A stretch of 64,000 bases of DNA from Cyanidioschyzon merolae. Taxonomy: Eukaryota. The DNA is taken from NCBI GenBank assembly GCA_000091205.1, contig AP006493.2. One strand, 5' to 3'. The notes under the pieces are model-generated. The model saw nothing but the letters and a program-made list of their open reading frames with translations. It did not search any database and was not told where the DNA came from. This document shows, one piece after another, positions 19,185-57,300 of the stretch (position 1 is its first letter; each line of letters begins with the position of its first letter). The position numbers and the translations under genes were made by a program.

Positions 19185-20457
19185 CTAGACGGCAATGCGC
19201 TCTTCAGCAGGAGAGCCAGAGCTGGACGCTTTCTGAACCACCTTCTGTGAGGTTTGGTAGCTTCGCAGCATTGCAAGATCCTCCTCAAGGCCAACGTCGT
19301 CCTCTGGATAAGCAGGGCCACCATGACGCGAGGTATCATTCCCAAGAATTCCCACCTCCGGCGGGACGCGTAGCAGGCCGAGAAACCTGAGGATCAAGAA
19401 GTAGCCGCCGATATTCATTCCCACAAACGGCCAAACGTAGAGAATCTCCGTCAGCTGAGCAGCGAGCTGCTTTCCATAGCCATAGAATACACCCCCCTGA
19501 ACCATCGTACGAGCCATAAACCATGGCGACGGTATCAGGCTTTGCGAAAAAGCCGGGAATGAGGACGCACCGTGTGCCTCCGAACGCGTGGACGGTAACG
19601 GCGCCGAGCGGGTCATCGATACGCAGCCGCTGGATGAGCTTATCGCCGAAAACCCAAATCCATCCCGCAATAACCCCGCAACACAGCGCCGAGTACGTCG
19701 GAATGGTCGAACAGGGAGATGTAACCGCCACTGTGTCGCTGATAGAGCCATTCACCATGGAGGCGCAGTCAAAGTACTTGTCCACGAATCGCGCGATAAT
19801 CAGCGTCGTGATCCCAGCAGATGCAGATAAAACGAGTGTGTTCACAGCAGCGAGCGCTACCTGACCTGCATTCGAGTACACTGTCGGTACACCGTTCTTA
19901 TTGAAGCCACCGCGCACTGCGCTACCAACCTTACCACCATCCGCGTATGATAACACACCCAGCTGCGAACCCGGATTGAAACCGAACCATCCGAACCACA
20001 GCAGGAGACCACCGAGCACAATCAACGAGATGTTATGACCGGGAATGGGACGGACCTTCCCGTTTTCATCGAAACGCCCAATTCGAGGTCCGATGATCAC
20101 TGCACTGACGAGTGCTCCAGCACCGCCAGTGATATGCACCACGCCGCTGCCAGCAAAGTCAATGGAGCCCGCGGTACCGTAGAAGCCAAAGCTGCCGATG
20201 ATATGACCGGTCGTTGGATTTGTGACTTTGTTGTAGAACAGATTCAGCCATCCGTTGGCGTTCCAGATGGCATGAGAGATCACTGGGTAGACAAAACCCA
20301 TCATGAGTGCAACGAACCCGATGTAGGCGAACACGCGAACCCGCTCACAGATCGCTCCGGCAACAATGGACGCGGCTGTCAGGCAGAAAGTGAACTGGAA
20401 CCACCACAAGAGAACCGGTAAAAGGTCGAACGCAAGGGGAATGGTGGAATACCACAT
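19185..20457 (-). CDS. AMT: Ammonium transporter (Amt/MEP family); reading frame broken by a 1-bp frameshift in a homopolymer near 19492-19497
   Basis: Frame 1 (20457..19336) carries Amt motifs ('ASIVAGAICERVRVFAYIGF', 'GAGALVSAVIIGPRIGRFDENGK', 'DDPLGAVTVHAFGGT'). The C-terminal Amt segment ('GGVFYGYGKQLAAQL...GLLRVPPEVGILGNDTSRHGGPAY') continues in another frame (ORF 19185..19751). The frames meet at a G6 run; removing one G yields ...YDGSGGVFYGYGKQL... Confidence 0.8.
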
Positions 20458-21497
20458 TGTGGAGTAGACAGACGTCGTCAGACGTCCGTGGAAAAGTCTT
20501 CAATGATTGGACAAAGAGGGTGCTGTTGTATGCGCCTCCTCCACGAGCGACACTGAGGCGGCCGACTGCATCAGCTCCCCCGAGAACAAGTGCTATCCAC
20601 GTTCTTTTCGAGTTCGATCGTACGTGGAACGGGTTCCATGCTCCGCCAACAATCATATATGCTTTGATGATTTCGTCCGAAGCAAGCCTCATCAACTGAA
20701 AAAAGCAAACCAACGTCCCGCTGCTGTGTATCGTTACTGATGTTCCAGGAACGCTGTCGTTACGAGTTTGGTGAAAGATCACCGTGCGTGAACTAGGAGT
20801 CTGTTGCAATTGTATCCCAGTGTGTTCTGGACCATGCGAACAAGCTCTCGGGAATCAGAGATGCCTGTGGTGGCAACTTCTATGATCCTGTTTCCTCCTC
20901 CTGTAAGACGATCAACGGGTCGTGTTCTACGATTAACCGCAACCGCTCTTTGATAATACAGGTTTTTGTCCCAAAGCGCATATACATGTTTGTTTCAGGC
21001 TTCCTCAACCATCAGCGTACTGTGTTATGTGTGACGAGAAAGAGGAATCCCGTCCTGCTTTCACTGTTCAGTAAAGAACATATATCATATAGGCAATTCT
21101 TCGACATCGATAGGATACGTTGCACCGTGATTCCGATCCCCAGCTATACACCGCAGCGCATGTGAAACAAACTTGAGAATCAAGTCCATGAGTCGCTGCT
21201 CGCGCCCCAACGAGACGATTGTTCTAGAGTATCCGGAGCTTGCGCTGCTGCATTGACATGCGTACCCATGGACAGGACTGACAGCAGAGACAAACCAGCT
21301 AACATAAGCGCGTTCAATGCTAGTCGGTTGCGTGTCTGCTGCACAACATCGTGCCGACCATGCGTACGGCATTGGTCAGCGTATAACAGGTTTGAGCGCA
21401 CAGCTTGCACCATAGGTCTAGTGACGGGAATCGTCACCGTGGTATCGTGTGGGTCATGCACGGGGTACTGCTGGCGCTGTCCACTCATGCTGTTGGC

Positions 21498-21890
21498 GTG
21501 AAGGTGATCCAGGAAGCACGCCAGAGCGCTGCGTTTCACAGGAACCGTCATATAAAAAGCATGTTCATACGCAGATCATGTGTCGGTATGCGTTTCCGGT
21601 GAAGGTGATCCAGGAAGCACGCCCGAGCGCTGCGTTTCACAGGAACCGTCATATAAAAAGCATGTTCATACGCAGATCATGTGTCGGTCTGCGTTTCCGG
21701 TGAAGGTGATCCAGGAAGCACGCCAGAGCGCTGCGTTTCACAGGAACCGTCATATAAAAAGCATGTTCATACGCAGATCATGTGTCGGTCTGCGTTTCCG
21801 GTGAAGGTGATCCAGGAAGCACGCCAGAGCGCTGCGTTTCACAGGAACCGTCATATAAAAAGCATGTTCATACGCAGATCATTATTCGCT
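21498..21890. repeat. Tandem minisatellite, 101-bp unit x ~3.9
   Basis: The unit 'gtgaaggtgatccaggaagcacgccagagcgctgcgtttcacaggaaccgtcatataaaaagcatgttcatacgcagatcatgtgtcggt[a/c]tgcgtttccg' recurs at 21498, 21599, 21700 and 21801. The period is not a multiple of 3, so the overlapping listed ORFs encode identical peptides as an artefact. Confidence 0.95.
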
Positions 21891-22622: not shown

Positions 22623-25600
22623 GTGGTACGTCTGCGGAGCATGGAGACCGAGTTGTATCGAGAGAGCGCACTTTTCTCCTGGGATGAGGTTGCGACCTGG
22701 ACAACGCGTAGTTTGGCTACAGGGAGGACCGCGGAACCCGAGTCCATCGCTAGCCCTGGTGGGCCGACTGCCTCCCAGGGCGCAACGCAAACAGCGCTCG
22801 AAGCTAGCAGCGGGCGGGTTGTGGACGCGGGCGCGGTGTTTGGCGCTCCCGTACGAGACTCAGAGGCAGGTTTCAATGACGAGTACATCGAGGTGCTCAT
22901 CTGGAGGCTTTTGCGTCACAAGGAGCGGGATCGGGCTGGTGCCTCGCTTTGGCTCGAGATCGCCCGGAAACGTTTCTACGGTTCTATGCAAAAGTTTCCA
23001 GATCCAGGGGCTCTGGGAAACCTGTCGACTTTGCAAGCGACGCTTGCTCAAGTCTTACACGGAGAGCGGTGGCGTCTACTGGACGAATCCATCTCCGCCG
23101 TGGTCTTTGGTGCGGACCCGAGCTGGTGCTACCTCCTCGTTGCGGGTACTCGACTTGTCTGCGTTCGACTGAGCGCGCTCAAGTCAGCCCAGACAGAAGT
23201 TGTTGCTTACGAGTACAGAAACGGGTTGGGTGTAGGCACAGCGCTTTCGTCCGAACGAGTGATGCGAACACCTGGAAGCATGCGTCGGGAATCTGTTCAG
23301 GAAAGCCACCTCGATACCGAGACGGCGGATATGCGTTACTTTTCCATGGAGACCTACGCCCCATTTCCCTCGAACACAGTTCAGACGCTGCACTTGCCGA
23401 CCGAAGTTTACGCAATCCAAGCCTTGGAGGATGCGCCGCACGCTTTTATTGCGTTCGCACGAAGTGGGCATCTATTCCGTATCGAAATCATGCAGCCTAC
23501 GGGAATGGATGTGACAAACGTTTCATACACGCTGACGACGCTCGCATCCCCGAAGAGTTTCCGTAATTTCGGTCCAGCAAAGAGGATACTGCAATCACTG
23601 AAAACGCCGGGGCGCCTGGGGGCCACGGCGGGAGCCTCCACACCAACCCGCGTATCTCCGCTGGGAGTGGAGAGGCGGACGCCTTGGCTTGCCAGCAGCA
23701 GGTCTGCAGGTCGCGCTTTTGGACAAGTTCCGATCGTTGCAACTTGTGCGATGCGTGGCCACGTGTTGATGCTCGACATGGAGGGCATTTTTCGACTGTG
23801 GGACCTGGGCAACCCGCAGGTCTTTGTTGAGTCGGTGCCCTGGCGTGCCTCGCTGGCGTCATCGGGGAGTTTCGGCTTGGTGCCGCATACGCATTCTGTG
23901 GAGATAGCTGCGCCAAACGGAGTAATGGCCTCATTTTTAGCCGTCGTCTCTGTTTTGGACGCAAGCGGCCTGTTGCGTTTGCAACTCATTCATGTCGTCT
24001 TGCGGCGCGCTGCTGAGGAAAACAGCACGCCCACCGGTCTGGAACTCACCACACAGCTCTTGGCTGATGCGGAGGCGCCTGCGGAAGAGCTGACGACGTG
24101 CTGCTTCTGGCAATCGCAGCAGGCACTCTGTCTGGGCTGGGCAAACGGCAGTATCACCTTGATACCGGTATCCGCTGATGCTATCTCATCGGCAAGTACC
24201 CGGGAAGCCTCGGGAGAGCCCTGGTGGTCATTCTCACTGAAGCCGGTCTACAGTATCGCTGCCGAGGATGAGATAGATGCGGACCTCCATCTGCAAGGCG
24301 CCCTGGATCGGACACCGGGACGCGACCCGGTAGAGCGTATTCTAGCGCCGCATCGTTTCCCCTGGGGCACTGTCTACCGGGTACTGCAGCGTTCGCTCCG
24401 CAGCGAGCAAGATGCTGCAAATACCTCTGCCGTGACGTCGGAGTACGCACTGGATCAAAGCATGTCACCGTGGACGTTATCGGCGTCGCCGTGCCTCGTT
24501 CGGTATCTGCGGGAGCGCCTGGTCGAGCTCGCAACACAGGATCCCGCGACGATGGATCGCTTCCTTCGTCGCGTTCGCATGTTTTACCTCGAAAACGACG
24601 CGTCCGTTCTACAGCTGCAACCGATGCCTCTTTTGGATGCATTCAGCCTTGTCGTGCATCCCTGGGGTGCCGCCGTACTCCGCCTCTGTGATGCGTCGGA
24701 GTGCCTGTTTTTCCGGAGTCGCGATCATTCGTTCAGCACCAATCAGGGCGATGCGCTGCCCTGGATGACTTTCTTGAGTAGGCTGCTTGTCGAGCGCTTC
24801 AATGCTTCACGCTGCGATGCCTCGATTGGTGGATCAACGCCAGCGCTGGAGCCACTTGCATCGCCACCGGCCTTGCTGCAACAGGACGACTCGGCAGCGC
24901 TGCTGCATCACCTGTGGGATATCGTGACTGGTCCATGTCTGCTGACCGCGGATGCTCTACAGCGCCTCCAACCGCCACCTGGCCTGCTAGCAGTCGTGCA
25001 GGCTACAAGTCTGCCGCAAATTGCCTACGTGCGGCGGACTTTTGCTGGCATTGGCGCGAATCTTGCCGCGCTAGGGCAGCAGCAGCAGCAGCAGCAGCTA
25101 AATTTCTGGAATCACCAGGAACGGCTGTGGGACTTGGCACTGCGCATCAGCACCAGCGCCGAGCTAAGCGACCAGTACGGACACCATTTCGTGGAACGAA
25201 TGCTCGGGAACGGCGAGTGGCTCGTTTGGCTGAAAATGCAGCACGCGCTCAGCACAGACTCTGTTAACGCCAACGCAAGCGCGTCTGCCGGCTCTGCCAC
25301 CTGGTTGACGCTGGTACCGCTGCTGATACGGCCGAGTCCTTCGATGGTACGTCTTCTGGTAGAGAAGGCGCCGTTGCACTGGGCGCTGCTCCTGATCGAT
25401 TCTTTCTATGAGAATGAGATGCCTGCGGTTCGTGCTCATGTGGCAGGCCTCATCGCACTGCAGCGCTGGCGTGAGGAGCGGCAAACGGATCCAGTGTCGC
25501 CTTTTGTTGAGGCGTGGACGGAGCTCCAGCAGAAGCAGCGGCCACTTGATCTGGAACTCTTACCACAACTCGTTGGAAGTATGAGCGGTGCACTGGATTA

Positions 25601-27233
25601 CGCAGAACGCATGGTGGAGTTTCTCGAGGATCAACAGGCGCATGAGGCAGCCTGTCAAATGGCGCGAGTCGCCCTTGCGACCCTAAGGGCAGAGCGCCAT
25701 GTGCAAGCAGGAGGCGAGCCTCAACCGGGCCTCGTTTCTGTACGTGAACGAACCGAGCGAGAAATCACCCAGACTCAGTTGGGATTCTTTCTATTCATGC
25801 GGGCACTGGATACGAACGCGCTCGACGAGGCGCTCTCGGTGCTCGTGAAGGATCTCCGGGAATCGAGTGCGCCTCAGACCCGTGATGCGCTCTATCTCCT
25901 GCTACAAAAAGCCATCGAAATGAAAGGAATGCCGTGGTTGCTGGCTCAATCCCTACCACCTCTGTGCTTTCTGCGCTCTGCTGAGGCGCTTTGGCGCCTC
26001 GCGACCGCCTGTGATCTGGAGCGTGCGGGTTCACTGTACGAGACGACGTGTGCTGTTTACATGACTCGGAACGAATGGTGGCTGGCAGCGTGCGTCGCCG
26101 TTGACTGGGCCGAGCGTACTCGTCAAGCACTGGACGCGGTACCAGCGGCACAGCAAGCGCAGTTGCTGGTCGACGCTTCAGCCGCTGGCGAGTCTGAACG
26201 CGTCACATGGCTCCTGGAGCAACGTCAGTGCGCGTTACAGCTCGCGCTCTACCTGCTCAAGCAGGCCGGGGACAAAGCCGTTCCCGTCACTCCGTCCTGG
26301 GTGATGGTCCAAGAGGCTGACATTCGTCGGGCCTGGTTGCTCGTTCGCTATCAACGTGCACTGCGACGTCAGCTGAATGCATCGGGGCACAGCAGCGGAA
26401 ACTTGCGTTTCCTATTCGAGACCAGCGATGCGGCAGCTCGATCCGTGGCGTATCAGCTTGTCGCTAGTCCACATCGTTTCGATGGTGAGAGCGGTATCAT
26501 GGCAGCTCTGAGGCTCACGTGTTTATGGTGGAACGAAGCTACTGCTGCTACTGCTGCATCTTCTGATGCGGCGGCTCCAAGCATGGCGCTCGCTGATGTT
26601 CGTCGCGAGACTGCTCGTATTATTCGCCTTGCTGTCGAGCGTGTGCAACCTTTATATGATGAACATGCAGCGGCTGATGCTGCGCTCGTCCAGATCGACA
26701 AGGAACTCGAAGCGGCCCTCAATTACGCTGCTTTGACCGCGCGAACTGGGTACGTTTTCACTCCTGCTCTGGAGGCCTGGATTCAGTGCACTGGCAAGCC
26801 CATGCAGACCGCTAGCTCCGAGCGCAGAACGAATTCCCAGGGAATAGCTACAGAGCGCTTGCCGAACAGGGACCTGGACCCTGCTGCGATACCAACGTCA
26901 ACTGCGGAAGCGAGGATACCCAGTCGCAAACAAAGCGATGACGCGAGCGAGTCCAAACCGGCGCCGTCCACCTTCAAAACGAAAGTGACAGTGGGCATCG
27001 CTTCGGCACCACGTTGGCTAGTTGATGCCGTGGCCCTGCGCGAGAACCACCTCGAGTCTATGCTGAAGCTGCTGATACAAAAGCAGCTCTATGCTGACGC
27101 TGCTCAACTCGTTGTCTTGCGCTTGGAGTGCAGCAGCCCTCGGCGACACCCTATCTATCTCTCACAACATGTTCTGCTTCAGCTGCGAGAACTCCTGAAC
27201 GCTGCCCCGGACACCAGTGCAACCACGTCCTGA
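22623..27233 (+). CDS. Very large hypothetical protein (1536 aa), possibly N-terminal beta-rich plus C-terminal alpha-solenoid
   Basis: A 4.6-kb uninterrupted ORF with an internal polyQ tract (QQQQQQQ) and no recognisable catalytic motif. An architecture reminiscent of nucleoporin/coat scaffolds is only a guess. Confidence 0.6.
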   Translation: MVRLRSMETELYRESALFSWDEVATWTTRSLATGRTAEPESIASPGGPTASQGATQTALEASSGRVVDAGAVFGAPVRDSEAGFNDEYIEVLIWRLLRHKERDRAGASLWLEIARKRFYGSMQKFPDPGALGNLSTLQATLAQVLHGERWRLLDESISAVVFGADPSWCYLLVAGTRLVCVRLSALKSAQTEVVAYEYRNGLGVGTALSSERVMRTPGSMRRESVQESHLDTETADMRYFSMETYAPFPSNTVQTLHLPTEVYAIQALEDAPHAFIAFARSGHLFRIEIMQPTGMDVTNVSYTLTTLASPKSFRNFGPAKRILQSLKTPGRLGATAGASTPTRVSPLGVERRTPWLASSRSAGRAFGQVPIVATCAMRGHVLMLDMEGIFRLWDLGNPQVFVESVPWRASLASSGSFGLVPHTHSVEIAAPNGVMASFLAVVSVLDASGLLRLQLIHVVLRRAAEENSTPTGLELTTQLLADAEAPAEELTTCCFWQSQQALCLGWANGSITLIPVSADAISSASTREASGEPWWSFSLKPVYSIAAEDEIDADLHLQGALDRTPGRDPVERILAPHRFPWGTVYRVLQRSLRSEQDAANTSAVTSEYALDQSMSPWTLSASPCLVRYLRERLVELATQDPATMDRFLRRVRMFYLENDASVLQLQPMPLLDAFSLVVHPWGAAVLRLCDASECLFFRSRDHSFSTNQGDALPWMTFLSRLLVERFNASRCDASIGGSTPALEPLASPPALLQQDDSAALLHHLWDIVTGPCLLTADALQRLQPPPGLLAVVQATSLPQIAYVRRTFAGIGANLAALGQQQQQQQLNFWNHQERLWDLALRISTSAELSDQYGHHFVERMLGNGEWLVWLKMQHALSTDSVNANASASAGSATWLTLVPLLIRPSPSMVRLLVEKAPLHWALLLIDSFYENEMPAVRAHVAGLIALQRWREERQTDPVSPFVEAWTELQQKQRPLDLELLPQLVGSMSGALDYAERMVEFLEDQQAHEAACQMARVALATLRAERHVQAGGEPQPGLVSVRERTEREITQTQLGFFLFMRALDTNALDEALSVLVKDLRESSAPQTRDALYLLLQKAIEMKGMPWLLAQSLPPLCFLRSAEALWRLATACDLERAGSLYETTCAVYMTRNEWWLAACVAVDWAERTRQALDAVPAAQQAQLLVDASAAGESERVTWLLEQRQCALQLALYLLKQAGDKAVPVTPSWVMVQEADIRRAWLLVRYQRALRRQLNASGHSSGNLRFLFETSDAAARSVAYQLVASPHRFDGESGIMAALRLTCLWWNEATAATAASSDAAAPSMALADVRRETARIIRLAVERVQPLYDEHAAADAALVQIDKELEAALNYAALTARTGYVFTPALEAWIQCTGKPMQTASSERRTNSQGIATERLPNRDLDPAAIPTSTAEARIPSRKQSDDASESKPAPSTFKTKVTVGIASAPRWLVDAVALRENHLESMLKLLIQKQLYADAAQLVVLRLECSSPRRHPIYLSQHVLLQLRELLNAAPDTSATTS

Positions 27234-28637: not shown

Positions 28638-28982
28638 CGATGCTGCCTGCCGCCGCTCGTGCCTTCAATCTCAACGAGCGCCGACACGCCTCGTTTGGCA
28701 GCGTGTGGAAACCAACGGTGCGAGGTAGTCTCTGCGTTTATCCATAACGCTGTTCCGAACTCGTGACGCATGTTCACTATACCGACTAATTGGCACGCAC
28801 TAGTCTGGTCGCATACAGCGTCAAGGACCCGGTTTCCGGGCAGTGCGAGCTTCGCGAAGCGACCTGAGCACGGCACTGCGGCCTCGTTACCGGTACAGAA
28901 ACCGAGGCGTAACGCGCTCTTATCGGCACAATGGCGCGAATCAAAACGCTCCTGGTCTTCAACGGCTATTACTCGGGAAACA

Positions 28983-30731
28983 ATGACCCCACTAGAGCTT
29001 CCGTTCTTGCGACTTAGCCGAATGGCGGCTGGCGACGCTCCTAGGTCAGCTGCAGTGACGCCTGACTCAGCGACGCCGGTAGCGGAACTCGTCAACGTGT
29101 CGTACCACGTTCGGGAGCACTTTCCTGTCATTGAAGATATCTCGCTAGCCCTGCACCGCTACGAAATTGTATGTCTTGTGGGGCAGTCGGGTTCCGGAAA
29201 ATCGACCATATTGCGCCTCTTCGCTGGCTTGGTGCAGCCGACGCGCGGTACCGTGTACTTTGCAGGGAAGCCGCTGCGTGGCGTAAACCCCAATGCAGCC
29301 ATTGTCTTTCAAAACTTTGCGTTATTCCCGTGGCTCACGGTGGTGGAAAACGTGATGCTGGGTCTGGGATCCGAAATCCCTCTAGCCGAACGCCGTCGAC
29401 AAGCGACTGCGATCGTCGATATGATTGGACTCGATGGCTACGAGAATGCGTATCCGCGCGAATTATCAGGTGGCCAACGCCAACGCGTAGGATTCGCACG
29501 AGCGCTGGTAACCCATCCGACGCTGTTGCTGCTGGACGAACCGTTTAGTGCACTGGACGTGCTTACTGCAGAGAACCTGCGCTCTGAGCTCCTGAACCTT
29601 TGGACGCATGGCTCGATGCCGACGCAGAGTATCCTCATGGTCACGCATGGCATTGAAGAGGCTGTATCCCTGGCGGATCGCATTGTCGTCTTGGGCAAGG
29701 GTCCAGGCCGTATACGGGCTGAAATCCCGGTACGTCTCCGCCATCCACGGGATCGCAAGTCGGATGCATTTCAGGAGCTCGTCGATCGGGTATATAAAAT
29801 CATCAGCGACGAGGTTACGCTTCCGGTAGATGCTGTGGACCAAGTCACGTCGGTTACAGAGCGTTCAGGAAGAGGCGGTGCAACGGCATCGGATTCTCGC
29901 GTGCTCGTGTCGCCACCGGATCGTGCGCAAAGTCAACGAGGCTCTATTGCCAGCACCGAGCAGGAAACCCAGAATCGAGCTGGTGATAACGCTGCCGCCG
30001 CAAGCCCAAGCACAACGAATGACGGACAGCCAAGTGATCGTCCGTTGTCGGCAGCTGCGAAGCGCCAGCTGCTGCAAAAGGCCGCGAGGAGTAATGACGA
30101 GCGCTTGAACGAGTTCCCGGCATTACCACCGGTTCGGTTGGGATCTGTGGCGGGGCTTCTCCAGCTTCTCGCCTCAGAGAACAGCCCCGTCGTGGACCTC
30201 TATCGCTTAGGCCAGGCGCTGCAGCTCGATGTGCACGGCCTGTATCCGATCGTAGAGGCTGCGGAAATTCTGGGTCTCCTCTCTGTATCTGAAGGAGACG
30301 TGGCGCTCACTGGGGCTGGGCATGCCTTTGTTGCCGGCAGCGTCGATGATCGAAAGCGAATAGTTCGGGGAGCGCTGCTCGTGGCTCCAGATGCACGTCT
30401 CATCCAAACCATTTGTCGATTGTTGCAGCGAGCTAAGCATCGTCGCATTCCAGAGAGCCTGGTGCTCGACAGTTTACTCGATCGATACTTCGAGCCGTCC
30501 GAGTCTCGTCGTCAGCTCGACACCGCGATCGAATGGGGTCGCTATGCCGAGCTCTTTGCGTACGATAGCGTCAGCGGCGAACTCTTCCTCGAGGACGAGA
30601 ACGACGCCAACACGAACGGAATGCTCGCGGATCGCCGCTCCACTGAAACCTATCAGACGGAGACGCCAAACCAACGGCCCCGGGTAACCAACGCGGGGCA
30701 CTCGGTAGACACAGCGCCGGATCTGGAATAA
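28983..30731 (+). CDS. Bacterial-type ABC transporter ATP-binding protein (NitT/TauT nitrate/sulfonate/taurine family) with a C-terminal AAA-associated domain
   Basis: It carries Walker A 'GQSGSGKST', Q-loop 'AIVFQNFALFPW', ABC signature 'LSGGQRQRVGFARAL', Walker B 'LLLLDEPFSALD' and H-loop 'ILMVTHGIEEA'. The C-terminal ~250 aa ('DLYRLGQALQLDVHGLYPIVEAAEILGLLSVSEGDVALTGAGHAFVAG') resembles the AAA-associated C-terminal domain of bacterial NitT/TauT ATPases. The start could instead be 29022 (MAAGDAP) or the ORF start 28770. Confidence 0.85.
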   Translation: MTPLELPFLRLSRMAAGDAPRSAAVTPDSATPVAELVNVSYHVREHFPVIEDISLALHRYEIVCLVGQSGSGKSTILRLFAGLVQPTRGTVYFAGKPLRGVNPNAAIVFQNFALFPWLTVVENVMLGLGSEIPLAERRRQATAIVDMIGLDGYENAYPRELSGGQRQRVGFARALVTHPTLLLLDEPFSALDVLTAENLRSELLNLWTHGSMPTQSILMVTHGIEEAVSLADRIVVLGKGPGRIRAEIPVRLRHPRDRKSDAFQELVDRVYKIISDEVTLPVDAVDQVTSVTERSGRGGATASDSRVLVSPPDRAQSQRGSIASTEQETQNRAGDNAAAASPSTTNDGQPSDRPLSAAAKRQLLQKAARSNDERLNEFPALPPVRLGSVAGLLQLLASENSPVVDLYRLGQALQLDVHGLYPIVEAAEILGLLSVSEGDVALTGAGHAFVAGSVDDRKRIVRGALLVAPDARLIQTICRLLQRAKHRRIPESLVLDSLLDRYFEPSESRRQLDTAIEWGRYAELFAYDSVSGELFLEDENDANTNGMLADRRSTETYQTETPNQRPRVTNAGHSVDTAPDLE

Positions 30732-53754: not shown

Positions 53755-56700
53755 GTGTCGCTACAGCTTCCTGTGTGTAGCCATGCTGTACGAACATATC
53801 TGCTCTGTCTACCATTCAGCGTGTGCATCATACGTGCAACAGTTTTTCTCATTGGTCCTGGGCAACGACGCAAGCAAAAGCAAAGCGTACTGCCTTCATG
53901 CATTAAGCGCGATACTCTGAGCCTCGTCGTTACGCAAGTACTAGCGTCGCGCAGGGACGCTCACGGTTTGACCCTCGCCACTGCCTTCGCGGACGCTGAG
54001 CGAATCGTCAGTTCGGAAGTGCTCGTCTGCTTGTTCGCGAGCTTGAGCGTTGCACACAAGTCACCGGCTTCGATGCCTGAGCCAGTGGACGATGCGCTCC
54101 GCAGGCGACTGCTACAGCCCGAAAGCCTGCGCGTTGAAGGTCTCTCGAGAACGCAGGACGCCCAACTGAGTGACTCGCTGAACGATGATGAAGAGATAGC
54201 AGTGCGCTTTACCGGGCAATCGGGCTCACCCCAGGCTCAGAGTGGAAATCTGAACCGAGCGTCTGCCCCTTTCTTAGGATACTTTGCTGAGGTGTCCTCA
54301 GCGACACCACGGCAGGCACAGCATGTGCAGTGGAAAGCAGCACGTCGTCGACTTGTTTGCATTTTGTTGGTTCTGGTCCCCGTTATCGTCATGATCGGCA
54401 TCGTTGCAAGCCTCCGTCAATACATAACCGAGCACGGTACGGAGAGTCTCGTTCGAAAGCGCCTATCGCACTGGGGTATTGCCGCAACTGTACCTCTTTA
54501 TAGCGAGAAGCGCTGGCGACGTGTATGGAATGCAACGCTCACTTACACAGGACAGCGAGGCTTCTTTGGCGTCTACATCGGAAGCGGTGCCTCCAACAGT
54601 ACCCTGAACAAAGTATGGCTTGAAGTACCGATCTCCGAACTCGAGCAGCCGTTCGTCATCGATAGTCTGATTACCCGCGGCGATGCTGAGGCATTCATGC
54701 TTCATGCTCCCTCTAACCGTGCACAAGAGAACTGGTTTGCCTTGCGTTTAGGGAAACCACGTCCATCATGGGCAGTTGATCTGTATCGACCCCAGCTCGG
54801 GGTGCGCATTCAGCATAACGACTCTGAGCTGGCTGCGTCCTATGCGGCAGGCACATGGACCGGATGGAGCAAGATCCTGCGGATCGTGGCGGTGACGTAC
54901 CAGGATGCGCTGTCCGTGAACAAAACAGCGTCGTTTGAAAATGTAACAGACGAAACGAAAAACCTTCGCTTGATCCTGGACGTCACTCCCTGGGTCAGTG
55001 ACGGATTCGCGGTGCTCTCGGAAGATGCACCCGCAAAGCTCACCGCGCAGACGAGCTCGCCCGCGAAAGCGCCCTGGTCTTATCGGGTCATTGCAGCGAA
55101 AGCGTATCCAGGTAATGTCGAGATCCGAGTGGAGGCTATGTTTCCACAGAAAGAGGCTGCCAGCGGCTGGAACCCTTCGGGTGTCTCTGCAGCAGAGATC
55201 TCCTTCCAGCTGGTGCGGCTCCCATCGGATTCGCTTCCACTCAGACTCGCAGACGAGCGAATCGGCTACTTTACGACGTCGTTTCTGTTGTTGGATCACG
55301 ACGAGGGAATCCACGAACGCATCGATGTCATCAATCGTCGACGCTTACCCACCGTATTCTATATCGATCCGACAGTTCCGAGTCGCTGGAGACTTTGTCT
55401 CAAACGTGGCGTGGAGAACTGGAACCTCGCCTTTGCTCAGGCCGGTTGGAATAAATCTGCGGCTAGGGTAGAGCCAGCGATTCGAGCCGTCCTCCCCGAG
55501 GACAGCGACTGGCCCTCGGACTACGATATCGGTGATATTCGTTTCAGCACCATCAGCTGGTCGCCTTCACTTAACAGTGTCTTCGCGCTAGGACCGAGCA
55601 ATATCGATCCACGTACTGGGGAAATTCTCAACTCGAATATTATCTTTACGCACGGATGGATTCGCAGTCTGATGCGACAATACACAAATCTGGTCGCTGC
55701 GCAGCAGCGCTTGACTGCACCGAACGACAGCAGTCGTCTCAGTGGACAACGTCGGAGTAGCGAAGCCTATCCCATGGCGAGCGTCTCCACCGTGCGCGAG
55801 TCGCCAGCGCTGCGTCGTGTTCAGCTCGTGGATGCTGCGCGCCTGGATACAGCAGCGTTTGCGATACTCGAGGTTATGGCACTGGTGTCGGATGTCGGCG
55901 ATGTACCCGAGAGATTCATCTGCGATGCGCTCATCGATACCACGATGCATGAGGTTGGTCATGCACTCGGCTTGCGGCATAACTTTAGGGCGAGCGCGAA
56001 CGTACGCTGGCAGGATCTGAGCGATCCCGAGTACGTTGAACGCAACGGGATCAGCTCATCGGTGATGGATTACCTTCCGATTTTGATTTTTGCCGATAGT
56101 CAGAAGCAAACGCGCTATTTTCAGCACGTTATTGGAGCATACGATATCTTGGCTATTCGATATGGATATGGAGGGAGCGAGCGCCCCACGCAGCTGTTGG
56201 AGCAGTTGCATTCCAGCAGTCTGTCACTGCGCCAAGCAGTCGACGAAGCATTGACGGAGCACCGTGTGGAGCTCGCACCGCTTGCCGAGCAGGCCGTGGA
56301 GGCAGGTCTCCATTTTGGTACCGACGAAGATGACCCCAGTCCGAATGGTGTGGATGTCTATGTTTCGCAGTGGGATCTCTCCGACGATCCGCTCGCGTAT
56401 CATGAAAACGTTCGACTGGTTGTTGGGCGAGCGCTGTCGAGTCTGCGCGCCCTTGTGCATGAGCGCGACCTTTCATGGAGCGATTACTCTGAACTTGTCC
56501 GGTACGCGCTCTTCTTTGGGAGTCGCAGTGCGCTCTATGCAACCAAGTTTCTCGGGAGCATTGAGCTACGTCGGGGTCACCCCGCGGATATTGCCCCAGG
56601 CAGAGCAGCTCGCACCGTCCAGGTGCCGCGCAAACCCGTCGATACGGAGACGATGCAGCGGGCACTTGGACTCTTGCGGCGCCTGCTGTCGCCACTGGAC

Positions 56701-57300
56701 CACGAGGCGATCCTGGGTGGTGGCTACCCAACGTGGGCTCTGGACCTTGTCGAGCCTGCTGGCAAGTGTGACGGTGTGGTTACTCACTGTCTGGGTACGA
56801 GACCGGTTTCGGCTCTGACGCTGCTGCAGCAGACGCGAAGTCAGGTACTCAGTTTGGCCCTGCATCCACAACGACTCGTCTGGTTGCAAGAGAACGCTTT
56901 ATGGGGGACAGCGTCTACGCTTCCACTGCATACATATCTGGAGTTATTGACGAACATGTTTTTCGATCCGAAGAATGTAGAAACGAGTCCAGAAAAATTC
57001 CCTCTGGTGCGGGACGCCCAAGTGGACTATGTGCTTGCGCTCCGAACCTCGTTTCTGAATATGAGCACGACGTCAAAGGGCCAAGGTGCAGTCTCCGCTG
57101 TTGCGTATGAGCTTCGTCGAATTCACTGTTTGGTGCGTAGAATGCTAGAGGCACCGGCGCCTGCTGCAGAAAACACCTCCAGCGACACGATGCATCGAGC
57201 GCACCTTCTCGGTCTCAGCGCACTTCTCGGTGACAAGTTTCCGCCGCTGGACTCACCCAGTCTGTACGGGATGCTCACTGTACCGTGTCCGACTAGTTGA
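53755..57300 (+). CDS. Membrane-anchored zinc metalloprotease of the bacterial-like met-zincin family (HExxHxxGxxH; DUF4953/DUF5117-like), 1181 aa
   Basis: The zincin active site is 'TMHEVGHALGLRHNFRASANVRWQDLSDPEYVERNGISSSVMDY'. There is a single N-terminal TM/signal-anchor 'RRRLVCILLVLVPVIVMIGIVASL'. The probable start is Met at 54073 (MPEPVDD), though the ORF opens at 53755. Confidence 0.8.
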   Translation: MSLQLPVCSHAVRTYLLCLPFSVCIIRATVFLIGPGQRRKQKQSVLPSCIKRDTLSLVVTQVLASRRDAHGLTLATAFADAERIVSSEVLVCLFASLSVAHKSPASMPEPVDDALRRRLLQPESLRVEGLSRTQDAQLSDSLNDDEEIAVRFTGQSGSPQAQSGNLNRASAPFLGYFAEVSSATPRQAQHVQWKAARRRLVCILLVLVPVIVMIGIVASLRQYITEHGTESLVRKRLSHWGIAATVPLYSEKRWRRVWNATLTYTGQRGFFGVYIGSGASNSTLNKVWLEVPISELEQPFVIDSLITRGDAEAFMLHAPSNRAQENWFALRLGKPRPSWAVDLYRPQLGVRIQHNDSELAASYAAGTWTGWSKILRIVAVTYQDALSVNKTASFENVTDETKNLRLILDVTPWVSDGFAVLSEDAPAKLTAQTSSPAKAPWSYRVIAAKAYPGNVEIRVEAMFPQKEAASGWNPSGVSAAEISFQLVRLPSDSLPLRLADERIGYFTTSFLLLDHDEGIHERIDVINRRRLPTVFYIDPTVPSRWRLCLKRGVENWNLAFAQAGWNKSAARVEPAIRAVLPEDSDWPSDYDIGDIRFSTISWSPSLNSVFALGPSNIDPRTGEILNSNIIFTHGWIRSLMRQYTNLVAAQQRLTAPNDSSRLSGQRRSSEAYPMASVSTVRESPALRRVQLVDAARLDTAAFAILEVMALVSDVGDVPERFICDALIDTTMHEVGHALGLRHNFRASANVRWQDLSDPEYVERNGISSSVMDYLPILIFADSQKQTRYFQHVIGAYDILAIRYGYGGSERPTQLLEQLHSSSLSLRQAVDEALTEHRVELAPLAEQAVEAGLHFGTDEDDPSPNGVDVYVSQWDLSDDPLAYHENVRLVVGRALSSLRALVHERDLSWSDYSELVRYALFFGSRSALYATKFLGSIELRRGHPADIAPGRAARTVQVPRKPVDTETMQRALGLLRRLLSPLDHEAILGGGYPTWALDLVEPAGKCDGVVTHCLGTRPVSALTLLQQTRSQVLSLALHPQRLVWLQENALWGTASTLPLHTYLELLTNMFFDPKNVETSPEKFPLVRDAQVDYVLALRTSFLNMSTTSKGQGAVSAVAYELRRIHCLVRRMLEAPAPAAENTSSDTMHRAHLLGLSALLGDKFPPLDSPSLYGMLTVPCPTS

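What the first reader, a model, noticed from the sequence alone, without database searches (positions are those of the whole stretch)
28983..30731. Solitary bacterial-type NitT/TauT ABC ATPase with AAA-associated C-terminal domain in a eukaryotic context
The ORF has all five ABC ATPase motifs and a Q-loop/signature typical of prokaryotic nitrate/sulfonate/taurine importers. It also carries the C-terminal 'AAA-associated' domain otherwise seen in bacterial ATPases of that family. It sits between unambiguously eukaryotic genes (enolase downstream; small membrane protein and a 1536-aa protein upstream). No transmembrane permease or periplasmic-binding partner is anywhere in the 64 kb. Its GC content and codon usage look native rather than contaminant. 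This suggests either an ancient horizontal acquisition that has been repurposed as a soluble ATPase, or an unrecognised eukaryotic lineage-specific family. Both the function without a permease and the role of the C-terminal domain are unknown.
Basis: partly seen in the sequence, partly recalled or inferred. Interest (0 to 1): 0.65.

Follow-up and report, generated by a model that had tools for sequence, protein, structure and literature searches.

The report
Red-alga chloroplast ABC transporter ATPase subunit
This is the already annotated Cyanidioschyzon merolae nuclear gene CMK129C, a cyanobacterium-derived ATPase that most likely enters the chloroplast and works with a membrane permease encoded on another chromosome, so it is neither a lone nor a foreign gene, although what the transporter carries is still unknown.

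Summary
The ORF is real. It has intact ABC ATPase motifs and a C-terminal PF09821 domain, sits among eukaryotic genes, and has native codon usage. The true CDS starts 213 nt upstream, at 28770 (653 aa).

The window is C. merolae 10D. [quoted passage not shown]

It is not solitary. In 66 of 71 evaluable cyanobacterial loci and 5 of 5 other bacterial loci, the orthologue lies next to a fused, duplicated BPD_transp_1 permease with no binding protein. C. merolae has that permease (BAM81620.1 / CMO283, 918 aa) on another chromosome. Every named red alga in the hit lists has both genes.

In NJ trees, red-algal ATPases and permeases each form one clade, sister to cyanobacteria. Red-algal copies carry N-terminal extensions (MF-type starts) that cyanobacterial copies lack.

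Best reading: the pair came from the plastid ancestor by endosymbiotic gene transfer and now forms a plastid-targeted, two-component Nrt/Ssu/Tau-like ABC system. The C-terminal domain is an acidic tandem winged helix, probably for dimerisation or regulation.

The substrate is unknown, and the bicarbonate (BCT1-like) proposal is not supported. Ordinary for this genome; the family itself is uncharacterised.

The parts
28770..30731 (+). Full CDS of CMK129C (653 aa plus stop), the ABC ATPase with a C-terminal PF09821 domain
   Evidence: ORF. It is 100% identical over 653/653 residues to BAM80508.1/XP_005536544.1 of C. merolae 10D. The gene ID comes from PMC10154280.
28770..29066 (+).
   Evidence: It is absent from all cyanobacterial orthologues and present, with variable sequence, in 9 of the 11 distinct red-algal sequences of alignment A1; the other two (Agarophyton, Gracilaria) have only short ones. 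Starts are MF/MAF in 6 of them. Residues 1-60 have net charge +8, no Asp, and 20% Ser+Thr. AlphaFold models it as disordered, pLDDT about 27-39. TargetP and PredAlgo predictions of thylakoid lumen and chloroplast are reported in PMC10154280.
29067..29807 (+). ABC nucleotide-binding domain (residues 100-346; Pfam ABC_tran match at 29133-29546)
   Evidence: Pfam E 1.6e-32. pLDDT is mostly 70-94. The best solved relatives are CmpD and NrtD, E 5e-49 to 5e-47.
29181..29207 (+). Walker A / P-loop, GQSGSGKST (residues 138-146)
   Evidence: Read from the sequence. G138, G141, G143, K144, S145 and T146 are invariant in 22 homologues.
29310..29312 (+). Q-loop glutamine, Q181
   Evidence: Invariant column.
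29463..29477 (+). ABC signature LSGGQ (residues 232-236)
   Evidence: L232, S233, G234 and G235 are invariant.
29523..29558 (+). Walker B LLLLDE (252-257) with catalytic E257, followed by the D-loop SALD (260-263)
   Evidence: D256, E257, S260, A261, L262 and D263 are invariant.
29646..29648 (+). H-loop histidine, H293
   Evidence: Invariant column.
29817..30104 (+). Disordered linker (residues 350-445), low in complexity and much expanded in red algae
   Evidence: pLDDT is below 50 over 350-426. The alignment shows an insertion of about 80-100 aa in most red algae (short in Galdieria) and none in cyanobacteria.
30105..30614 (+). C-terminal tandem winged-helix module (residues 446-615; Pfam AAA_assoc_C match at 30201-30566)
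30615..30731 (+). Variable acidic/polar C-terminal tail (residues 616-653) and stop codon
   Evidence: Not conserved outside the Cyanidioschyzon/Cyanidiococcus group. pLDDT is below 50.

Best explanation
CMK129C is the nucleus-encoded ATPase subunit of a two-component ABC system inherited from the cyanobacterial ancestor of the plastid. In cyanobacteria the system is a two-gene operon: an NBD with a tandem winged-helix C-terminus, followed by one polypeptide carrying two BPD_transp_1 membrane domains, with no substrate-binding protein. In red algae both genes moved to the nucleus, became unlinked (the permease is CMO283/BAM81620.1 on another chromosome) and gained N-terminal extensions.

Inferred mechanism: the precursor is imported into the plastid through its transit peptide. 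Two ATPase copies sit on the stromal face of one duplicated permease in the inner envelope, or possibly the thylakoid membrane. ATP is sandwiched between Walker A/B of one NBD and LSGGQ of the other, and its binding and hydrolysis drive alternating access of the type-I (importer-fold) membrane domains. The acidic tandem winged-helix modules pair beneath the NBDs as a dimerisation or regulatory module. This would be analogous to the C-terminal regulatory domains of MalK, ModC and MetN, or to the NrtA-like domain of NrtC.

Shown: domain content, intact catalytic motifs, conserved operon partner, presence of the partner in red algae, cyanobacterial sister relationship, N-terminal extensions and the winged-helix fold. 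Inferred: plastid location, physical pairing, transport direction and the role of the winged-helix module. The substrate is unknown. By family resemblance it may be a small anion or small polar solute.
For: Identity and annotation.

Domains and motifs.

Operon partner: Planktothrix has a 575-aa duplicated permease 6 bp downstream. The permease lies directly downstream in 66 of 71 evaluable cyanobacterial loci. It is adjacent in 5 of 5 non-cyanobacterial loci. Clustering of all flanking ORFs finds no other widely conserved neighbour and no SBP.

Red-algal permeases: they are the top hits of the cyanobacterial permease among 1.84 billion representatives. Named examples are C. merolae BAM81620.1 (918 aa, two BPD_transp_1 stretches), Cyanidiococcus, Cyanidium, Galdieria, Porphyridium, Gracilariopsis, Pyropia and Rhodosorus. 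The permease of a sister cyanidiophyte is flanked by Vps4, UBX and ribosomal S17 genes, which shows it is nuclear.

Phylogeny: in the permease NJ tree, red algae have 100/100 support and red algae plus cyanobacteria 100/100 against 38 other representatives. In the ATPase NJ tree, red algae have 200/200 support and are sister to 12 cyanobacteria. The best 80 prokaryotic matches to the C-terminal domain are cyanobacterial by their names; three records are unnamed MAGs.

N-terminal extensions.

C-terminal fold.

Literature: PMC3688454 describes the same architecture in Ca. Liberibacter (no PBP, tandem TMDs, predicted winged helix). PMC10154280 lists CMK129C and CMO283 with chloroplast and thylakoid-lumen targeting predictions.
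Against: There is no experimental localisation, interaction or transport data for either protein. The TargetP call of 'thylakoid lumen' is an odd place for an NBD. An importer-fold ABC system without a binding protein has no well-established working model, and PMC3688454 itself questions whether the system is a transporter at all.

The trees are NJ only. The ATPase tree has just two non-cyanobacterial outgroups, and the taxonomy of most permease outgroups is unknown. PMC10853006 calls a red-algal NitT/TauT permease 'chlamydia-derived' and says it is also in the green lineage. I could not tell whether that is this gene. No chlamydial name appeared among the top 120 hits.

I did not assess the permease N-terminus for a transit peptide, and I could not search the C. 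merolae genome for an SBP.
Confidence: 0.8

Rival explanations
1. One reading: a solitary, soluble ABC-type ATPase that lost its membrane partner after horizontal transfer and was repurposed for a non-transport role.
For: No permease or binding protein is among the 16 window ORFs of at least 250 aa, all scanned. Soluble ABC ATPases do exist (ABCE/ABCF, established knowledge).
Against: The cognate duplicated permease is present in C. merolae and in every named red alga found, and its phylogeny matches that of the ATPase. In prokaryotes the two genes are almost always adjacent. Eukaryotic genes of one complex are not expected to be linked.
Confidence: 0.04
2. The pair is a BCT1-like (CmpABCD) ATP-driven bicarbonate importer serving the C. 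merolae carbon-concentrating mechanism, as listed among the candidates in PMC10154280.
For: The closest solved NBDs are CmpD, NrtD, CmpC and NrtC. CMK129C and CMO283 are the best C. merolae hits to cmpC/D and cmpB. A plastid envelope bicarbonate pump is postulated in that paper's model.
Against: Identity to CmpB is only 24%. No CmpA/NrtA-type binding protein accompanies the system in 71 evaluable cyanobacterial loci. The C-terminal domain is a winged helix, not the NrtA-like domain of CmpC/NrtC. NCBIfam scores are far below every equivalog cut-off. The paper reports no significant transcript response to a CO2 shift. The family also occurs in non-photosynthetic bacteria (Bacillota; Liberibacter).
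Confidence: 0.1
3. The winged-helix module binds nucleic acid, so the protein is a plastid nucleoid- or RNA-associated ATPase or regulator rather than a transporter subunit.
For: The fold matches wHTH DNA-binding proteins (MarR family) and the FokI and N.BspD6I recognition domains. [quoted passage not shown]
Against: The module is strongly acidic in all 13 representatives, with net charge -8 to -14. The gene is fixed next to a permease across bacteria. Winged helices also serve as protein-protein or dimerisation modules, as in the methyltransferase hits.
Confidence: 0.04
4. Recent lateral transfer, bacterial contamination or a chimeric assembly.
For: The domain architecture is bacterial-type, and JGI's prokaryotic pipeline names the protein a NitT/TauT ATPase.
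Against: The same gene order is seen in four independent metagenome assemblies and in a 77%-identical sister species. Codon usage is native. The red algae form one clade that includes Cyanidiophyceae, Bangiophyceae, Florideophyceae and Porphyridiophyceae. Only the eukaryotic copies carry the N-terminal extension and the linker insertion.
Confidence: 0.01

Closest known systems
'Nrt/Ssu/Tau-like' two-component ABC system with a PF09821 ATPase and a duplicated permease (e.g. Ca. Liberibacter asiaticus CLIBASIA_02415/02420; Li et al. 2012, PMC3688454)
   Same: The architecture is the same: an NBD plus a PF09821 winged-helix C-terminus, a partner with two tandem BPD_transp_1 domains, and no binding protein in the operon.
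   Different: Here the two genes are nuclear, unlinked and carry N-terminal extensions plus a long disordered linker. The function of the family is unknown everywhere. The permease orthologue is in the essential gene set of L. crescens.
Cyanobacterial orthologues (e.g. the Planktothrix tepida ATPase P0051 and permease P0136)
   Same: 46-56% identity over the whole mature ATPase in the alignment, and 59-65% over the ABC domain in BLASTP. They are sister to the red-algal clade. The tandem winged-helix module is the same.
   Different: They are about 445 aa, with no transit peptide and no linker insertion. They are operon-encoded with the permease 6 bp downstream.
NrtABCD nitrate and CmpABCD (BCT1) bicarbonate ABC importers of cyanobacteria (PDB 8wm7, 8w9m, 9u9z)
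   Same: The NBDs are the closest among solved structures, E 5e-49 to 1e-43. They belong to the same broad NitT/TauT grouping.
   Different: Those systems have an NrtA/CmpA binding protein, a single-domain permease (NrtB/CmpB), two different ATPases, and an NrtA-like regulatory domain on NrtC/CmpC. None of these features is present here.
ABC importer ATPases with C-terminal regulatory domains (MalK, ModC, MetN), from established knowledge
   Same: An extra C-terminal domain follows the NBD and could dimerise beneath it and regulate ATPase activity. This is a working analogy only.
   Different: The fold differs: tandem winged helix here, against TOBE/OB or ACT-like domains there. No ligand or regulatory role has been shown here.

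Membership tests
ABC ATPase superfamily (PF00005) | Walker A, Q-loop, LSGGQ signature, Walker B with catalytic Glu, D-loop and H-loop are all intact | tested here: met
   Pfam gives 113.4 bits against a cut-off of 25. The motif residues are invariant in 22 homologues.
PF09821-type 'Nrt/Ssu/Tau-like' two-component ABC system | The ATPase carries a C-terminal AAA_assoc_C (PF09821) domain | tested here: met
   109.4 bits against a cut-off of 27.6, covering the full profile 1-119. The model is a tandem winged helix with pLDDT 93.
PF09821-type 'Nrt/Ssu/Tau-like' two-component ABC system | The partner is a single polypeptide with two tandem BPD_transp_1 membrane domains | tested here: met
   C. merolae BAM81620.1 (P0533, 918 aa) has two BPD_transp_1 stretches and belongs to the red-algal clade sister to the cyanobacterial operon partners. 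Physical pairing was not tested.
PF09821-type 'Nrt/Ssu/Tau-like' two-component ABC system | No dedicated substrate-binding protein | tested here: inconclusive
   No SBP is conserved next to the operon in 80 cyanobacterial loci or 5 other loci. I could not search the whole C. merolae genome.
NitT/TauT importers with known substrates (NrtABCD, CmpABCD/BCT1, TauABC, SsuABC) | The score reaches the curated equivalog or subfamily cut-off of a named ATPase family | tested here: not met
   TauB 192 against 357, NtrCD 190 against 291.8, SsuB 172.5 against 395, PhnT2 196.7 against 457.7.
NitT/TauT importers with known substrates (NrtABCD, CmpABCD/BCT1, TauABC, SsuABC) | Periplasmic binding protein plus single-domain permease architecture | tested here: not met
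   The permease is duplicated and fused, and there is no SBP in the operons. PMC3688454 makes the same point.
BCT1 bicarbonate transporter | Low-CO2 induction and a CmpC-type C-terminal NrtA-like regulatory domain | tested here: not met
   The C-terminal domain is a winged helix. PMC10154280 reports that the transcript response to a CO2 shift is not significant (literature, not tested by me).
Plastid-targeted nuclear gene of cyanobacterial origin (endosymbiotic gene transfer) | The eukaryotic sequences form one clade whose closest prokaryotic relatives are cyanobacteria | tested here: met
   NJ bootstraps are 100/100 and 200/200 for the red-algal clades and 100/100 for red algae plus cyanobacteria in the permease tree. 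The best 80 prokaryotic loci are cyanobacterial by their names; three records are unnamed MAGs. No ML tree was made and Chlamydiae were not explicitly sampled.
Plastid-targeted nuclear gene of cyanobacterial origin (endosymbiotic gene transfer) | N-terminal presequence absent from the prokaryotic orthologues | tested here: met
   An extension of about 70-115 aa is present in 9 of the 11 distinct red-algal ATPases (short in Agarophyton and Gracilaria). It is basic, rich in Ser/Thr/Ala, has MF/MAF starts in 6 of them, and is modelled as disordered.
Plastid-targeted nuclear gene of cyanobacterial origin (endosymbiotic gene transfer) | Demonstrated plastid localisation of the protein | not testable with these tools
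   Only the TargetP and PredAlgo predictions quoted in PMC10154280 are available.

The most novel reading that the evidence does not exclude
CMK129C and CMO283 would form a binding-protein-independent ABC transporter with an importer-type fold in the red-algal plastid. It would be gated by an acidic tandem winged-helix module and would be a mechanistically distinct, still uncharacterised ABC class. That class runs from bacteria to plastids, and its permease orthologue is in the essential gene set of Liberibacter crescens. Among named eukaryotes in my hit lists it is seen only in red algae. Its substrate would not be covered by known plastid carriers. The conserved crcB-ATPase-permease order in about a third of the cyanobacterial loci hints at halide or small-anion handling.
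Probability: 0.3. Interest if true: 0.55.

Novelty: already known. Interest (0 to 1): 0.22.

Why it matters
For the scan, this shows that a bacterial-looking ABC ATPase inside a eukaryotic window is an ordinary product of plastid endosymbiosis. It is already annotated, and its partner is elsewhere in the genome.

The residual interest lies in the family, not the locus. The PF09821 ATPase plus duplicated-permease system has no known substrate, no binding protein and no solved structure. Yet it is widespread in bacteria, reported as essential in Liberibacter crescens, and kept by every named red alga in the hit lists. C. merolae is genetically tractable, so the pair CMK129C/CMO283 would be a practical entry point for finding what this system moves across a plastid membrane. 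It would also allow a direct test of the suggested role in the red-algal carbon-concentrating mechanism.

Tried and rejected
- The first permease search, using the Planktothrix sequence, returned only cyanobacteria in its top 120, so no red alga was visible. I solved this with the 50%-representative search followed by cluster look-ups.
- The afdb50 fold library was unavailable, so I could not use it to map the taxonomic spread of the domain.
- Rfam found no riboswitch or other RNA in 11 prokaryotic loci.
- Literature searches for the accession numbers and for 'AAA-associated domain' found nothing. PMC2246286 did not cover this gene.
- The first bootstrap script timed out and I rewrote it.
- I considered and rejected four ideas: DNA binding by the winged helix (acidic); an adjacent SBP (none); contamination or a chimera; and a plastid-genome-encoded permease (the permease of a sister species is flanked by nuclear eukaryotic genes, and the C. 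merolae copy is on a 902,900-bp record).
Full report
**1. The observation**

The window holds an uninterrupted + strand ORF ending at 30731. All catalytic motifs are intact and invariant across 22 homologues. In 653-aa numbering they are:
- Walker A: GQSGSGKST, 138-146
- Q-loop: Q181
- Signature: LSGGQ, 232-236
- Walker B: LLLLDE, 252-257
- D-loop: SALD, 260-263
- H-loop: H293

The NBD is of NitT/TauT type. The best NCBIfam models are PhnT2, TauB, NtrCD and SsuB, but all score at about half their curated cut-offs. The closest solved chains are cyanobacterial CmpD, NrtD, NrtC and CmpC.

The other large ORFs in the window are plainly eukaryotic: acyl-CoA oxidase, PP2C, L7Ae, Pex13, a TPR protein, Dna2, Vps23 and enolase. 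None is an ABC permease. GC, GC3 and codon usage match the neighbours.
- The ORF begins at ATG 28770, not 28983.
- 'Solitary' is true only inside the 64 kb window.

**2. What and where it is**

[quoted passage not shown] The 582-aa form is what prokaryotic gene callers produce on metagenome contigs. The published gene ID is CMK129C (PMC10154280).

Four independent metagenome assemblies carry the same order: 1530-aa gene, ATPase, enolase, TAF10, Dna2. A 77%-identical sister cyanidiophyte does too. The linkage to eukaryotic genes is therefore real and not an assembly artefact.

**3. Relatives**

Full-length homologues with 47-77% identity occur in Cyanidiococcus, Cyanidium, Galdieria (three species), Gracilaria, Agarophyton, Hildenbrandia, Pyropia and Porphyridium. 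Interleaved with them in the ranking are cyanobacterial proteins of about 445 aa, from Planktothrix, Nostoc, Rhizonema and others.

In the alignment the mature region is 46-56% identical between C. merolae and all non-Cyanidiales homologues, cyanobacteria included. Two features are seen only in the red-algal sequences:
- An N-terminal extension of roughly 70-115 aa in 9 of the 11 distinct red-algal sequences (Agarophyton and Gracilaria have only short ones).
- A disordered insertion between the NBD and the C-terminal domain in most of them (short in Galdieria).

The extension begins MF or MAF in six red algae (MFTIP, MFALP, MFAAP, MFVV, MAFV, MAFVAV). It is basic and rich in Ser/Thr/Ala and is modelled as disordered. 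This fits the Phe-near-N-terminus transit peptides of red algae, which is established knowledge and was not tested here.

**4. The missing permease**

In Planktothrix the orthologue is followed, 6 bp downstream, by a 575-aa protein with two BPD_transp_1 domains. I scanned one genome per prokaryotic species with an alignment of the C-terminal domain. It found 555 relatives, and the best 80 are cyanobacterial by their names (three records are unnamed MAGs).

- In 66 of these 80 loci the duplicated permease lies directly downstream on the same strand.
- Nine of the remaining 14 loci are cut off by a contig end. Five, including three Thermosynechococcus loci, have room for the permease but lack it there.
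- Clustering all flanking ORFs shows no other widely conserved neighbour and no binding protein.
- Five non-cyanobacterial loci (one Bacillota, four unnamed) have permease and PF09821 ATPase adjacent, in the opposite order.

I then searched the Planktothrix permease against 1.84 billion cluster representatives. The top hits are longer proteins with N-terminal extensions. These turn out to be red-algal (Galdieria XP_005705313.1, Porphyridium aerugineum) and cyanidiophyte metagenome proteins.

A follow-up search lists orthologues in Cyanidiococcus, Cyanidium, Galdieria, Gracilariopsis, Gracilaria, Agarophyton, Eucheuma, Pyropia, Rhodosorus and Porphyridium. The cluster at 70% identity contains C. 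merolae BAM81620.1/XP_005537656.1, "unknown ABC anion transporter", 918 aa, on a 902,900-bp record, which is a different chromosome. The literature calls it CMO283.

In the sister cyanidiophyte the permease is flanked by Vps4, UBX and ribosomal S17 genes, so it is nuclear. The ATPase therefore has its cognate membrane partner. The two genes are simply unlinked, as expected in a eukaryote.

**5. Origin**

NJ trees with Kimura distances give the following support:

| Tree | Grouping | Bootstrap |
|---|---|---|
| Permease | 11 red-algal sequences as one clade | 100/100 |
| Permease | Red algae plus 9 cyanobacteria, against 38 other representatives | 100/100 |
| ATPase | 11 red-algal sequences as one clade, sister to 12 cyanobacteria (only two outgroups) | 200/200 |

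The two genes show concordant histories, cyanobacteria are the nearest relatives, and only the eukaryotic copies have presequences. Together these point to endosymbiotic gene transfer of the whole two-gene operon from the plastid ancestor. They argue against independent horizontal transfer.

One caveat applies. PMC10853006 mentions a 'chlamydia-derived' NitT/TauT permease in red and green algae. I could not establish whether that is this gene, and no chlamydial name appeared in my top hits.

**6. The C-terminal domain**

Modelled alone with 119 homologues, residues 446-615 give mean pLDDT 93.1. They fold as two consecutive winged-helix units joined by two helices.

- Foldseek finds nothing significant. 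Its weak hits are multi-winged-helix proteins and the winged-helix dimerisation domains of O-methyltransferases.
- No solved ABC transporter carries this module.
- The module has net charge -8 to -14 in all 13 representatives. That argues against DNA binding and for a protein-protein or ligand-sensing role.
- PMC3688454 predicted the same fold in 2012.

**7. How it most likely works**

Shown: this is a catalytically competent ABC NBD fused to a tandem winged helix. It has a conserved duplicated type-I permease partner, no conserved binding protein, cyanobacterial ancestry and presequences.

Inferred: both proteins are imported into the plastid. Two NBDs dock on the stromal side of one permease polypeptide (a pseudo-heterodimer of membrane domains). 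ATP-driven closure and opening of the NBD dimer switches the membrane domains between conformations. The winged-helix modules pair under the NBDs as a clamp or regulator, by analogy with MalK, ModC, MetN and NrtC.

The substrate and direction of transport are unknown. The bicarbonate (BCT1) suggestion of PMC10154280 is weakly founded:
- Identity to CmpB is only 24%.
- There is no CmpA-like binding protein.
- The regulatory domain is different.
- The paper reports no significant transcript response to a CO2 shift.
- The family also occurs in non-photosynthetic bacteria.

In Liberibacter crescens the permease orthologue is in the essential gene set. A weak lead comes from crcB, the fluoride channel gene. 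It lies directly upstream on the same strand in about 27 of 80 cyanobacterial loci, spanning Oscillatoriales and Nostocales. No riboswitch was detected in the loci I scanned.

**8. Comparison with what is known, and novelty**

The gene is a member of the PF09821 'Nrt/Ssu/Tau-like' two-component ABC system described, without a function, in PMC3688454. It fails membership of the characterised Nrt, Cmp, Tau and Ssu systems on score cut-offs and on architecture. The locus is annotated, and both genes have been named together in the literature. The finding is therefore already known and ordinary for this genome. What remains open is the biology of the family.

**9. Verdict**

Interest is low for the locus (0.22), with moderate residual interest in the uncharacterised transporter family.

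Noticed in passing
window 53755-57300 (+): A 1181-aa ORF has DUF4953 (Met-zincin, E 2.7e-47) and DUF5117 domains. From memory, this architecture is typical of bacteria. Its codon usage is native (r = 0.90). It may be another gene of bacterial origin in this red-algal chromosome.
   Followed up: no
window 19185-20809 (-): The ammonium-transporter coding region is split over three overlapping minus-strand ORFs in different frames (20345-20809, 19336-20457, 19185-19751). The Pfam match of the middle ORF starts only at profile position 83. This could be a frameshifted pseudogene, a sequence error or an unusual gene structure.
   Followed up: partly
window about 21405-21804 (+): Three overlapping ORFs translate to near-identical peptides (…VKVIQEARQSAAFHRNRHIKSMFIRRSCVG[ML]RFR), which points to a tandem DNA repeat of roughly 130 bp in an intergenic region.
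   Followed up: no
L007-L054 and others (cyanobacterial loci), just upstream of the ATPase gene: A crcB/FluC-like gene (my reading of the sequence; it was not scanned against a family library) lies directly upstream on the same strand as the ATPase-permease operon in about 27 of 80 cyanobacterial loci. These span Oscillatoriales and Nostocales, with gaps as small as 70-85 bp. This may be a functional link to small-anion or halide handling, or only inherited synteny. No riboswitch was found in the 11 loci scanned, 5 of which have crcB.
   Followed up: partly
L047, L050, L056 (Thermosynechococcus), L041, L058: Five cyanobacterial loci have the PF09821 ATPase but no permease within the 1.7-6 kb of downstream sequence held in the locus, so the pair is already unlinked in some cyanobacteria.
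   Followed up: no
L083, L086-L089 versus L001-L082: Gene order is permease then ATPase in the five non-cyanobacterial loci, but ATPase then permease in cyanobacteria.
   Followed up: no
window 22623-27233 (+): The 1536-aa upstream ORF has no Pfam domain. It is conserved in the same position next to the ATPase gene in C. merolae-like metagenome contigs and in a sister species. It is a cyanidiophyte-conserved protein of unknown function.
   Followed up: no
window 29817-30104 (+), within the gene: Most red-algal orthologues, but not the cyanobacterial ones, carry a disordered, low-complexity insertion of about 80-100 aa between the NBD and the winged-helix module; it is short in Galdieria. The red-algal permeases likewise have long inserts between their two membrane domains.
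   Followed up: partly
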